13,711 bases of DNA from a virus, in IMG/VR virus record IMGVR_UViG_3300005563_001145; one strand, 5' to 3'. Below, piece after piece: positions 6,681 to 7,220 of the stretch. Each line of letters starts with the position of its first letter. Positions within the stretch are counted from its first letter, which is position 1. Made by a program: the position numbers and the translations under genes. The notes below the pieces were generated by a model, which saw nothing but the letters and a program-made list of their open reading frames with translations, had not been told where the DNA came from and did not search any database.

Positions 6681-7220
6681 ATGTACAACGTCGATGAGCA
6701 TGGACTCAGTCCTGACGCATTTCTCGCACACGACGCCAAAGGCAAGGAGGTAAGAATCCAAGGGGAGACTCCTGCGGTCTATCTGCACAATCCGAAGTAC
6801 CCGCACAACCTCGGTCAAGTGATCCGAGCGTGCGCCTGCTTCAACGTCAATCAGGTGTGGTGGAGCGGTGACCGTGTCGCAAAACAACTCGAAGGTCTCG
6901 ATCGCATTCCTCGTGAGGAGAGGATGCGAGGCTACTCAGACGTCCGCCTTTTACGCTCTACTCGTGCGCTTGACGCCTTTCCTAGTGACGTTACTCCGGT
7001 AGCGCTCGAGTTCAGACCCAACAGCGAGAAGTTGCCAGACTTCGTTCACCCCAAGAAGGCGGTGTACGTCTTCGGCCCGGAAGACGGCTCTCTCGACAAA
7101 GGGATTCTCTCTCGTTGCCACCGCTTCGTTTTTATTCCGACCAAGCACTGCGTGAACCTGTCGGCCGCCGTGTACATGGTCCTCTACGACAGGATGGTGA
7201 AAGAACAGAACAATGCCTAA
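6681..7220 (+). CDS. SPOUT-class RNA 2'-O-ribose methyltransferase, TrmL(YibK)/SpoU-TrmH-like
   Basis: SPOUT motif 1 VYLHNPKYPHNLGQVIRACACFNV aligns with TrmL [23 protein letters not shown]. Motifs 2/3 AVYVFGPEDGSLDKGILSRCHRFVFIPTKHCVNLSAAVYMVLYD align with YLMFGPETRGLPASILD...IRIPMVPDSRSMNLSNAVSVVVYE. The protein is compact at 179 aa, as is TrmL. An AGGAG RBS precedes the ATG. Its 3' end overlaps the next gene by 8 nt. Confidence 0.75.
   Translation: MYNVDEHGLSPDAFLAHDAKGKEVRIQGETPAVYLHNPKYPHNLGQVIRACACFNVNQVWWSGDRVAKQLEGLDRIPREERMRGYSDVRLLRSTRALDAFPSDVTPVALEFRPNSEKLPDFVHPKKAVYVFGPEDGSLDKGILSRCHRFVFIPTKHCVNLSAAVYMVLYDRMVKEQNNA

What the first reader, a model, noticed from the sequence alone, without database searches (positions are those of the whole stretch)
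6681..7220. Virus-encoded TrmL-like SPOUT 2'-O-methyltransferase, possibly shielding tRNA anticodons
The ORF aligns best to the minimal SPOUT enzyme TrmL (YibK), which 2'-O-methylates wobble nucleotide 34 of tRNA-Leu. The match is to motifs YLHNPKYPHNLGQVIRACACF and VYVFGPEDGSL...FIPTKHCVNLSAAVYMVLYD. A 2'-O-methyl at or next to a cleavage site removes the attacking 2'-OH and blocks transesterifying RNases, the same logic as Hen1 in Pnkp/Hen1 repair. A phage-borne wobble 2'-O-MTase next to end-healing enzymes may be an immunity or repair lock against anticodon nucleases such as colicin E5/D-like RNases, PrrC or RloC. The gene has visibly lower GC and more A/T-ending codons than the MVP gene. 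It follows the only AT-rich stretch in the window.
Basis: partly seen in the sequence, partly recalled or inferred. Interest (0 to 1): 0.6.

Follow-up and report, generated by a model that had tools for sequence, protein, structure and literature searches.

The report
Jumbo-phage SpoU-type RNA ribose methyltransferase
The gene is a real, intact RNA 2'-O-methyltransferase of the knotted SPOUT class, but it is not a TrmL orthologue: it belongs to a separate family found almost only in very large uncultured phages, where it often sits among phage tRNA genes or next to RNA-ligase/repair genes, so a tRNA-directed role is likely and an anticodon-shield role is possible but untested.

Summary

It belongs to a sharply separated family (188 clusters at 50% identity with E<=1e-30) found on jumbo or huge phage contigs. 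The window itself matches a 210-kb IMG/VR contig.

The window's gene neighbours are conserved only in its closest relatives. Across 70 non-redundant loci:
- 20 have a tRNA gene within 2 kb (controls 2/48).
- 16 have an RNA ligase in the locus (controls 2/87).
- One lineage has contiguous RtcB, Tpt1 and SPOUT genes.

The most likely function is phage tRNA 2'-O-methylation at an unknown position. An anticodon shield or repair lock remains plausible but undemonstrated. I rate it a new member of a known kind, of moderate interest.

The parts
6589..6619 (+). Intrinsic-terminator-like hairpin (GCCGGUGCCC / GGGUGCCGGC, loop UCAC) followed by UUUUCUU. It begins 9 nt after the MVP stop codon and separates the MVP gene from the SPOUT transcription unit.
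   Evidence: Sequence. Fold of 6583-6622 gives -27.3 kcal/mol, z -5.11, with 0 of 200 shuffles as stable. The consensus scan did not list it.
6612..6680 (+). AT-rich leader, the lowest-GC stretch of the window, with Shine-Dalgarno AGGAG at 6671-6675, 5 nt before the ATG.
   Evidence: The 80-nt minimum GC is 0.375 at 6612-6691. Sequence. No sigma-70-like promoter was found.
6681..7220 (+). SPOUT (SpoU/TrmH-class) RNA 2'-O-methyltransferase gene, 179 aa.
6780..6842 (+). Motif 1 (Y34-F54, YLHNPKYPHNLGQVIRACACF), with N43 and the predicted catalytic R49.
   Evidence: N43 and R49 are invariant in 44 homologues. They align with the N and R of TrmL motif 1. The spacing N-x5-R matches TrmH N35/R41 (PMC5372735).
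6903..6935 (+). Family-specific Arg-rich segment R75-Y85 (RIPREERMRGY). It is absent from TrmL and is a candidate RNA-binding element.
   Evidence: R75, P77, R78, E79 and R81 are invariant. In the TrmL alignment this region is gapped or poorly aligned. Model confidence is lower here, at block means of 74-81. The RNA-binding role is inference.
7062..7094 (+). Motif 2 (V128-L138, VYVFGPEDGSL), with E134.
   Evidence: G132, P133, E134, D135 and G136 are invariant. E134 aligns with the TrmL motif-2 Glu.
7131..7190 (+). Motif 3 (F151-D170, FIPTKHCVNLSAAVYMVLYD), with N159. C157 occupies the place of the TrmH/TrmL Ser.
   Evidence: H156, C157 and N159 are invariant. Aligned to TrmL 'SRSMNLSNAV'.
7213..7815 (+). 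Metallophosphoesterase gene whose ATG overlaps the SPOUT stop codon by 8 nt, indicating likely translational coupling.
   Evidence: phrog_547 'phosphoesterase' at E 5.8e-54. PDB 1xm7 at 6e-6. Overlap sequence. The same adjacency occurs in L004 and L005, and a homologue lies 395 nt upstream in L012.
3344..3781 (+). Context only: 2H-phosphoesterase-like ORF (H34-M-T36 and H84-I-T86).
   Evidence: Weak Pfam tRNA_lig_CPD hit, E 0.0057. The motifs are conserved in L004. The structure model is unusable.
1874..3307 (-). Context only: LigD 3'-phosphoesterase domain fused to an ATP-dependent ligase.
   Evidence: PF13298 at 3.2e-11 plus ligase OB and NTase domains. NCBIfam LigD models. PDB LigD phosphoesterase domains at 9e-10.

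Best explanation
The ORF encodes an active-looking, AdoMet-dependent SPOUT-class ribose 2'-O-methyltransferase. It belongs to a distinct family characteristic of jumbo and huge phages.

By analogy with TrmH, TrmJ and TrmL, it should act as a homodimer. One subunit would bind AdoMet in the trefoil knot. The motif-1 arginine (R49) of the other subunit would activate a target 2'-OH.

The most likely substrate is tRNA, either the phage's own tRNAs or host tRNAs. The methylated position is not resolved and is not shown to be wobble-34.

In this phage the gene opens a transcription unit after a strong terminator and is translationally coupled to a metallophosphoesterase.

Shown: the ORF, the fold class, the conserved catalytic motifs, the family's separateness, its phage distribution, and the enrichment of tRNA genes and RNA-ligase/repair genes around it.

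Inferred: enzymatic activity, the dimer, tRNA as substrate, and any biological role.
For: Fold and motifs:
- PF00588 at 62.1 bits against a 29.7 cut-off.
- N43, R49, E134 and N159 are invariant across 44 homologues of 53-87% identity. They align to the TrmL motif residues.

Distinct family:
- 188 clusters at 50% identity with E<=1e-30, and only 2386 with E<=1e-3, among 1.84 billion representatives.
- No PHROG. No phage relative in BFVD.

Phage origin:
- The window is 100% identical to IMG/VR contig 3300005535_000017 (210 kb) and carries rIIA/rIIB.
- 134 IMG/VR hits, many on contigs of 200-545 kb.

tRNA link:
- Of 70 non-redundant loci, 37 hold tRNA genes within 8 kb, 20 within 2 kb and 14 within 500 nt. 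Of the tRNA genes, 268 of 272 are on the same strand as the SPOUT gene.
- Control loci centred on ThyX or rIIA give 2/48 within 2 kb (Fisher p 6e-4).
- The window's own phage has at least 9 tRNA genes about 10 kb downstream.

RNA-repair link:
- An RNA ligase (RtcB, PF09414 or PF09511) lies in 16/70 loci against 2/87 controls (p 6e-5).
- RtcB-SPOUT-Tpt1 and RtcB-Tpt1-SPOUT occur as contiguous genes.
- A Pnk-type kinase-phosphatase lies nearby in L177 and in Mycobacterium phage WXIN.
Against: - There is no biochemical evidence of any kind.
- Structural and profile similarity is as high to rRNA methyltransferases (AviRb 17.8, YsgA 17.0, RlmB 16.4) as to tRNA enzymes, so the substrate class rests on gene context alone.
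- About half of the lineages (18 of 35 clusters at 60% identity) show neither tRNA nor repair genes nearby.
- tRNA density around the gene is flat over 0-8 kb. This indicates membership of a 'tRNA region' rather than tight coupling to a particular tRNA.
- Control loci come from generally smaller phages, so the enrichment may be inflated. Against the rIIA set alone, p is 0.10.
- In the window itself no tRNA lies within 8 kb.
Confidence: 0.6

Rival explanations
1. Anticodon shield or repair lock. The enzyme puts a 2'-O-methyl on the nucleotide 5' of a site cut by host anticodon nucleases. It would act either pre-emptively on intact tRNA or on repaired tRNA, so the 2'-OH needed for transesterification is gone and the tRNA cannot be cut, or cut again. 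It would work alongside phage RNA ligases and end-healing enzymes, as Hen1 does with Pnkp.
For: - The gene lies recurrently beside RNA-repair genes of several unrelated types: RtcB+Tpt1 contiguous in two gene orders; a small PF09414 ligase adjacent or within 1.5 kb in 5 loci and Rnl1 at 955 nt; histidine phosphatase adjacent in 4 loci; Pnk-type enzymes in L177 and phage WXIN; a metallophosphoesterase overlapping it in the window.
- Such genes are nearly absent from 87 control loci.
- The chemistry is established. Cm34 protects human tRNA-Met from angiogenin (PMC6601510). Jumbo phages are known to carry tRNA repair kits against anticodon nucleases (PMC7824862).
- From my own knowledge: Hen1 methylation makes repaired tRNA resistant to re-cleavage.
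Against: - Repair genes lie within 3 kb in only 7 of 35 lineages. The co-location may merely reflect a shared 'translation/tRNA island'.
- The target position is unknown, and the similarity to TrmL (position 34) is not specific.
- No SPOUT enzyme is known to act on RNA 3' ends as Hen1 does, and Hen1 has a different fold.
- The window's ligase is LigD-type (DNA end joining), lies on the opposite strand, and is 3.4 kb away.
Confidence: 0.22
2. rRNA 2'-O-methyltransferase. The phage would methylate host 23S or 16S rRNA to tune or hijack ribosomes, or to protect them from ribotoxins or antibiotics, as RlmB, AviRb and Tsr do.
Against: - It lacks the N-terminal L30e-like RNA-binding domain that RlmB-, AviRb- and Tsr-type enzymes carry. 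Those PDB chains are 242-267 residues against 179 here.
- Scores fall far below the RlmB cut-off (27 vs 160 bits).
- The gene context is enriched for tRNA genes, not for ribosomal genes.
Confidence: 0.1
3. True TrmL-like wobble methyltransferase. It would make Cm34/Um34 on tRNA-Leu(CAA/UAA), host or phage-encoded, to improve decoding of UUR codons.
For: The best single-sequence PDB hit is TrmL. JGI's automatic annotation names relatives TrmL. The phage encodes tRNA-Leu(UAA). The protein has no large extension domain.
Against: - The TrmL hit is not significant (E 0.073).
- The TIGR00185 score is 26.1 against a cut-off of 190.6.
- It has a roughly 30-residue N-terminal extension and an Arg-rich insert not present in TrmL.
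- No particular tRNA is consistently adjacent to the gene.
Confidence: 0.06

Closest known systems
TrmJ / YjtD(LasT) subfamily (tRNA Cm32/Um32 2'-O-methyltransferase; NCBIfam TIGR00050; PDB 3ilk, 4cnd, 4xbo)
   Same: It is the best profile-level match: 44 of 44 family members hit TIGR00050 (best E 7.6e-14), and PDB 3ilk scores 2.1e-5. It shares the SpoU fold and the three motifs.
   Different: Scores are far below the cut-off (27 vs 167 bits). The TrmJ-specific TxARxR motif and the C-terminal tRNA-binding extension (PMC5372735) are absent. The TSARLR segment of 3ilk aligns to an unrelated stretch.
TrmH (SpoU; tRNA Gm18 2'-O-methyltransferase; PDB 1v2x, 7edc)
   Different: Only 18-19% identity. 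The NCBIfam TrmH model is hit weakly by 8 of 44 members. C157 replaces the TrmH S150. The N-terminal extension differs, and there is a family-specific RIPREERMRGY segment.
TrmL (YibK; tRNA-Leu Cm34/cmnm5Um34 2'-O-methyltransferase; PDB 4jak, 7e3t)
   Same: Similar small size with no separate RNA-binding domain. The three motifs align.
Pnkp/Hen1 bacterial RNA repair-and-modification system
   Same: A 2'-O-methyltransferase gene is found beside RNA end-healing and sealing genes (RtcB, Tpt1, Rnl, Pnk-type, phosphoesterases) in several phage lineages. The protective chemistry is the same in principle.
   Different: Hen1 is a Rossmann-fold enzyme acting on the 3'-terminal nucleoside of a broken RNA, whereas this is a SPOUT-fold enzyme. 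No Pnkp is present in the window. The linkage is seen in a minority of lineages, and no activity on RNA ends is known for SPOUT enzymes.
Jumbo/huge-phage tRNA supply and RNA-repair gene sets (PMC7824862; PMC7162821)
   Same: The same genomes and the same partners: tRNA arrays, RtcB, Rnl1/Rnl2, KptA/Tpt1, 2H, calcineurin-like phosphatases and Thg1. 'Genes for tRNA modification' in huge phages are already noted in general terms.
   Different: The main text of PMC7824862 does not mention a SPOUT/SpoU methyltransferase, and a term search of PMC7162821 found no 'methyltransferase'. Literature searches found no description of this family.

Membership tests
SPOUT superfamily, SpoU/TrmH class (Pfam PF00588) | Match to the SpoU_methylase profile above the curated gathering score | tested here: met
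   62.1 bits vs 29.7, covering profile positions 4-142 of 142. All listed homologues carry PF00588.
SPOUT superfamily, SpoU/TrmH class (Pfam PF00588) | Three conserved motifs with the catalytic Asn/Arg (motif 1), Glu (motif 2) and Asn (motif 3) | tested here: met
   N43, R49, E134 and N159 are invariant in 44 sequences and align to the TrmL motifs. Definition from PMC5372735.
SPOUT superfamily, SpoU/TrmH class (Pfam PF00588) | Alpha/beta knotted fold resembling solved SpoU-class enzymes | tested here: met
SPOUT superfamily, SpoU/TrmH class (Pfam PF00588) | AdoMet-dependent 2'-O-methylation of RNA; homodimer | not testable with these tools
   Requires biochemistry.
TrmL (tRNA Cm34/Um34) | Reaches the curated equivalog model (TIGR00185 or NF007683) | tested here: not met
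   26.1 bits vs 190.6, and 15.9 vs 282. The matches cover only motif fragments.
TrmL (tRNA Cm34/Um34) | Minimal enzyme consisting of the SPOUT domain only | tested here: not met
   The SPOUT core starts at about residue 32. Residues 1-31 form an extension with strands 14-17 and 23-26. There is an extra conserved segment at 66-88 relative to TrmL.
TrmL (tRNA Cm34/Um34) | Closer to TrmL than to other SpoU subfamilies | tested here: not met
TrmL (tRNA Cm34/Um34) | Methylates wobble nucleotide 34 of tRNA-Leu, dependent on (ms2)i6A37 | not testable with these tools
   Requires enzymology and Nm mapping.
TrmJ (tRNA Nm32) | Curated model cut-off; TxARxR motif; C-terminal extension | tested here: not met
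   27 bits vs 167. No TxARxR at the aligned position. The protein ends 8 residues after motif-3 residue R171. Definition from PMC5372735.
TrmH (tRNA Gm18) | Curated model (NF008295) and TrmH-type terminal tRNA-binding segments | tested here: not met
   Only 8 of 44 members give weak hits (best 3e-5). The query itself gives none. The fold match is high but not discriminating. The terminal tRNA-binding segments were not examined.
RlmB/AviRb/Tsr-type rRNA 2'-O-methyltransferases | N-terminal L30e-like RNA-binding domain preceding the SPOUT domain; curated RlmB model | tested here: not met
Pnkp/Hen1 RNA repair system | Hen1-type Rossmann methyltransferase encoded next to a Pnkp kinase-phosphatase-ligase | tested here: not met
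   The fold is SPOUT, not Rossmann. No Pnkp in the window. Pnk-type genes are seen only near relatives.
Pnkp/Hen1 RNA repair system | Methylation of the 2'-OH at the break so that the repaired junction resists re-cleavage | not testable with these tools
   Requires assays with broken tRNA halves and ribotoxins.

The most novel reading that the evidence does not exclude
This phage-restricted SPOUT family is a working part of phage tRNA counter-defence. Encoded in modules such as RtcB-SPOUT-Tpt1, Rnl-SPOUT or Pnk-SPOUT, or inside tRNA arrays, it would 2'-O-methylate the anticodon loop of phage and/or host tRNAs, intact or freshly religated, so that host anticodon nucleases can no longer cleave them. 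That would make it a SPOUT-fold functional analogue of Hen1 and a new class of anti-defence enzyme.
Probability: 0.22. Interest if true: 0.75.

Novelty: new member of a known kind. Interest (0 to 1): 0.42.

Why it matters
Host defences that cut tRNA anticodon loops (PrrC, RloC, retron and PARIS effectors, VapC-like toxins) are a major theme in phage biology. Known phage answers are spare tRNAs and ligase-based repair. A phage-specific 2'-O-methyltransferase family that travels with tRNA arrays and with RtcB, Tpt1 or Rnl genes would add chemical 'armouring' of tRNA as a third answer, and it is directly testable with one small soluble protein.

Even if it is only a maturation enzyme for phage tRNAs, two things follow. 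Automated 'TrmL' labels on hundreds of metagenomic proteins are over-specific. And huge phages carry their own, separately evolved tRNA ribose methylase whose target site is unknown.

Tried and rejected
- Single-sequence search of PDB sequences gave only insignificant hits (best TrmL, E 0.073), so it was not used for classification.
- PHROGs has no family for the protein.
- megablast of the whole window against GenBank phages found nothing.
- tblastn found only one uncultured 595-kb phage (53% identity) and Mycobacterium phage WXIN (30%).
- The genome-contig scan with single-sequence patterns returned only two loci. The closer one (L002, labelled a Thermoplasmatales MAG) has flanking tRNAs, and its host assignment may be a binning artefact (not tested).
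- The idea that the window's neighbours (ligase, 2H, MVP, MPE, ThyX) form a conserved module with the SPOUT gene is rejected. They co-occur only in the closest relatives (78-87% identity), and no neighbour family is present in more than 12 of 87 loci.
- I looked for a tRNA species consistently adjacent to the gene and found none.
- The promoter scan of 6400-7400 found nothing, and the scan also missed the terminator that folding shows.
- Rfam found no RNA family in the window.
- The AFDB Foldseek library was unavailable.
- BFVD gave only two remote giant-virus SPOUT proteins.
- The structure prediction of the 2H-like ORF was unusable (pLDDT 42.6).
- Burroughs & Aravind 2016 (PMC5062991) is not held.
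- Literature searches found no description of a phage SPOUT/RNA-repair link.
- The control loci are imperfect: the ThyX and rIIA homologues come mostly from smaller phages.

Full report
**Observation**

The ORF at 6681-7220 (+) is real: ATG start, 179 aa, and both quoted peptide motifs are present. It matches Pfam SpoU_methylase (PF00588) over essentially the whole profile, at E 8.2e-17 and 62.1 bits against a gathering score of 29.7.

The compositional remarks are correct:
- The gene has GC 0.554 and GC3 0.661, the lowest GC3 of the 11 genes in the window. The upstream vault-protein-like gene has 0.637 and 0.878.
- The lowest-GC 80-nt stretch of the whole window is 6612-6691 (0.375).

That 100-nt spacer has three features:
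- A GC-rich hairpin followed by UUUUCUU, starting 9 nt after the MVP stop codon (-27.3 kcal/mol, z -5.1, none of 200 shuffles as stable).
- An AT-rich leader.
- AGGAG 5 nt before the ATG.

So the methyltransferase gene opens a new transcription unit. Its stop codon overlaps the ATG of the next gene by 8 nt. That gene is a metallophosphoesterase (phrog_547, E 5.8e-54).

**What the protein is**

An alignment of 44 homologues (53-87% identity) shows invariant N43 and R49 (motif 1), G132-P-E134-D-G (motif 2) and N159 (motif 3). These align with the corresponding TrmL residues. Their spacing matches the TrmH catalytic set N35, R41, E124 and N152 described by Hori (PMC5372735).

The protein is therefore a SpoU/TrmH-class ribose 2'-O-methyltransferase with an intact active-site signature.

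**It is not TrmL**

- The only support for TrmL is an insignificant single-sequence hit (4jak, E 0.073) and JGI's automatic COG label on relatives.
- NCBIfam's TrmL equivalog scores 26.1 bits against a cut-off of 190.6. RlmB (27.2) and TrmJ (27.0) score the same.
- With the family profile, the best PDB matches are TrmJ-type chains (3ilk 2.1e-5), then TrmH (4.6e-4). TrmL follows at 7e-3 to 0.08 and RlmB at 0.02.
- Across all 44 members, the TrmJ/YjtD model is hit by 44, RlmB by 39 and TrmL by 33. None comes near a curated threshold.
- Unlike the minimal TrmL, the protein has a roughly 31-residue N-terminal extension predicted to form two strands. It also has an invariant Arg-rich segment, R75-I-P-R-E-E-R-M-R-G-Y85.
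- It also lacks the TrmJ TxARxR motif and C-terminal extension (PMC5372735). It further lacks the extra N-terminal domain of RlmB- and AviRb-type rRNA enzymes.

An exhaustive profile search of 1.84 billion cluster representatives found 188 with E<=1e-30, 959 with E<=1e-10 and only 2386 with E<=1e-3. The family is thus sharply set apart from the very large bulk of cellular SpoU proteins.

**Where it occurs**

The window is 100% identical to IMG/VR contig 3300005535_000017 (210,330 bp). It carries rIIA and rIIB, so this is a jumbo phage.

The family was found on 134 IMG/VR contigs, many of 200-545 kb, and on a 595-kb 'uncultured phage' genome in GenBank (53% identity). There is no PHROG for it and no phage relative in BFVD. 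Among cultured phages only a distant homologue exists, in Mycobacterium phage WXIN (30% identity). Two MAG-derived contigs labelled as archaeal carry it as well. Their gene content and flanking tRNAs look viral.

**Gene context: the window's own neighbourhood**

The window's gene order is PurA, LigD-phosphoesterase/ligase on the minus strand, a 2H-like ORF, an MVP-like gene, SPOUT, the metallophosphoesterase, ThyX, then rIIA and rIIB. This order is shared only with the closest relatives (78-87% identity; L004, L005).

In the other roughly 80 loci those genes are not nearby. No neighbour family occurs in more than 12 of 87 loci. In addition:
- The ligase is a LigD-type enzyme, pointing to DNA end joining.
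- The 2H assignment rests on two HxT motifs and a weak Pfam hit. A structure model for it failed.

**Gene context: two recurrent themes across the family**

First theme, tRNA genes. Of 70 non-redundant loci, 37 carry tRNA genes within 8 kb, 20 within 2 kb and 14 within 500 nt. Several SPOUT genes are embedded in arrays of 14-24 tRNAs. Of the tRNA genes, 268 of 272 are on the same strand as the SPOUT gene, at a mean of 0.27 tRNA per kb. Control loci centred on ThyX or rIIA homologues gave 0.002 and 0.149 tRNA per kb, and 2 of 48 loci had a tRNA within 2 kb. Fisher's test gives p 6e-4 for the 2-kb comparison and 6e-6 for 'any tRNA in the locus'. The window's own phage has at least 9 tRNA genes about 10 kb downstream on the other strand.

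Second theme, RNA repair and processing genes:
- RtcB, Tpt1 and SPOUT are contiguous in L010 and L015. In L178 and L179 the order is RtcB-SPOUT-Tpt1, with touching or overlapping reading frames.
- A small PF09414 RNA ligase is adjacent or within 1.5 kb in five loci. An Rnl1-type ligase lies 955 nt away in another.
- A histidine phosphatase is adjacent in four loci.
- Thg1 and a tRNA-binding domain protein also appear among immediate neighbours.
- A PNK3P/kinase gene and an ATP-dependent ligase flank the gene in L177.
- The WXIN homologue lies 1.1 kb upstream of an annotated 3'-phosphatase/5'-polynucleotide kinase.

An RNA ligase is present in 16 of 70 SPOUT loci against 2 of 87 control loci (p 6e-5).

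Grouped into 35 clusters at 60% identity, 14 have tRNAs within 2 kb, 7 have a repair-type gene within 3 kb, and 17 have either. The remaining lineages place the gene among small unknown ORFs.

Caveats on this evidence:
- The controls come mostly from smaller phages.
- The HMMs were built from SPOUT-locus sequences.
- tRNA density is flat with distance, so the gene belongs to a tRNA/translation region rather than to a specific tRNA.

**Interpretation**

The best-supported reading is a phage-specific tRNA ribose 2'-O-methyltransferase whose target position is unknown (confidence about 0.6). Activity, dimerisation and substrate are inferred, not shown.

A 2'-O-methyl removes the nucleophile used by cyclising RNases. 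Cm34 protects human tRNA-Met from angiogenin (PMC6601510). From my own knowledge, Hen1 does this in bacterial repair. The idea gains some support from the RtcB/Tpt1/Rnl/Pnk linkage.

It nevertheless remains a minority pattern with no positional information, and no SPOUT enzyme is known to act at RNA ends. I give it about 0.22. An rRNA target (about 0.1) and a genuine TrmL-like function (about 0.06) are less likely.

**Comparison with the literature**

[quoted passage not shown] The main text of PMC7824862 does not mention a SPOUT methyltransferase, a term search of PMC7162821 found no 'methyltransferase', and full-text searches found no description of this family.

**Verdict**

The finding is a new, uncharacterised member (a separate subfamily) of a well-known enzyme class, in a known biological setting. 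It is a good, cheap experimental lead rather than a surprise. Interest 0.42.

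Noticed in passing
window 3785-6580 (+): A 931-aa protein with a major-vault-protein shoulder domain (PF11978, E 1.4e-23) and a weak vault-repeat hit, encoded by a jumbo phage. It is conserved (69% identity) in the related 207-kb contig (L004). It has the highest GC3 in the window (0.878) and is followed by a strong terminator.
   Followed up: partly
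window 1874-3307 (-): A LigD 3'-phosphoesterase domain is fused to an ATP-dependent ligase (NTase + OB) with no polymerase domain. This is an unusual two-domain LigD-like enzyme in a phage. Whether it seals DNA or RNA is unknown.
   Followed up: partly
window 3344-3781 (+): A small ORF with two HxT motifs (H34-M-T36, H84-I-T86) typical of 2H phosphoesterases. It has only a weak Pfam tRNA_lig_CPD hit and falls in a PHROG of unknown function. The single-sequence structure model failed (pLDDT 42.6).
   Followed up: partly
L145 15187-17895 (same contig, about 9.9 kb downstream of the SPOUT gene, minus strand): An array of at least 9 tRNA genes. It includes two tRNA-Leu(AAG) and a tRNA-Tyr(AUA), which are unusual A34 anticodons as called by ARAGORN, plus tRNA-Leu(UAA), Ile(UAU), Arg(UCU) and three Ser.
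   Followed up: no
L178 8598-11111; L179 5003-7516; L010 6053-8564; L015 3348-5851: RtcB, SPOUT and Tpt1/KptA genes are contiguous with touching or overlapping frames. They occur in two different orders (RtcB-SPOUT-Tpt1 and RtcB-Tpt1-SPOUT), followed by a small ORF and a Cpn60 gene. Tpt1 next to RtcB is itself odd, because RtcB leaves no 2'-phosphate.
   Followed up: partly
window 510-1877 (+); also L004, L177, L013, L037: A PurA-like adenylosuccinate synthetase recurs within a few kb of the SPOUT gene in several lineages. The best annotated phage relatives are the 'PurA-like / 2-aminooxy adenylosuccinate synthetase' genes of mycobacteriophages (34% identity).
   Followed up: partly
L004 16953-18386 and L005 13564-14997: The closest relatives of this phage encode a eukaryote-type PARP (WGR + PARP regulatory + PARP catalytic domains) a few kb downstream of rIIB.
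   Followed up: no
window 8794-9879 (+): A 361-aa protein with an N-terminal RanBP-type zinc ribbon, a predicted hydrophobic segment and a very Cys/Tyr/Thr-rich C-terminal half. It has no family match and is found only in the identical contig.
   Followed up: no
L006 13775-13849, L011 13769-13843; L025, L027, L047, L049, L053: Several huge-phage loci carrying the SPOUT gene also encode suppressor-type tRNAs (anticodons UUA and CUA) and tmRNAs (L010, L024, L047, L064). This suggests stop-codon reassignment or translation takeover in those phages.
   Followed up: no
L002 (DAOVGR010000053.1, 'Thermoplasmatales archaeon' MAG) and L177 (JBSWSB010000033.1, 'Hermodarchaeia archaeon' MAG): Family members occur on short contigs binned into archaeal MAGs. 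The gene content (tRNAs, EF-Ts, Pnk, PurA, ligase) resembles the phage loci, so these may be mis-binned viral contigs or archaeal viruses.
   Followed up: partly
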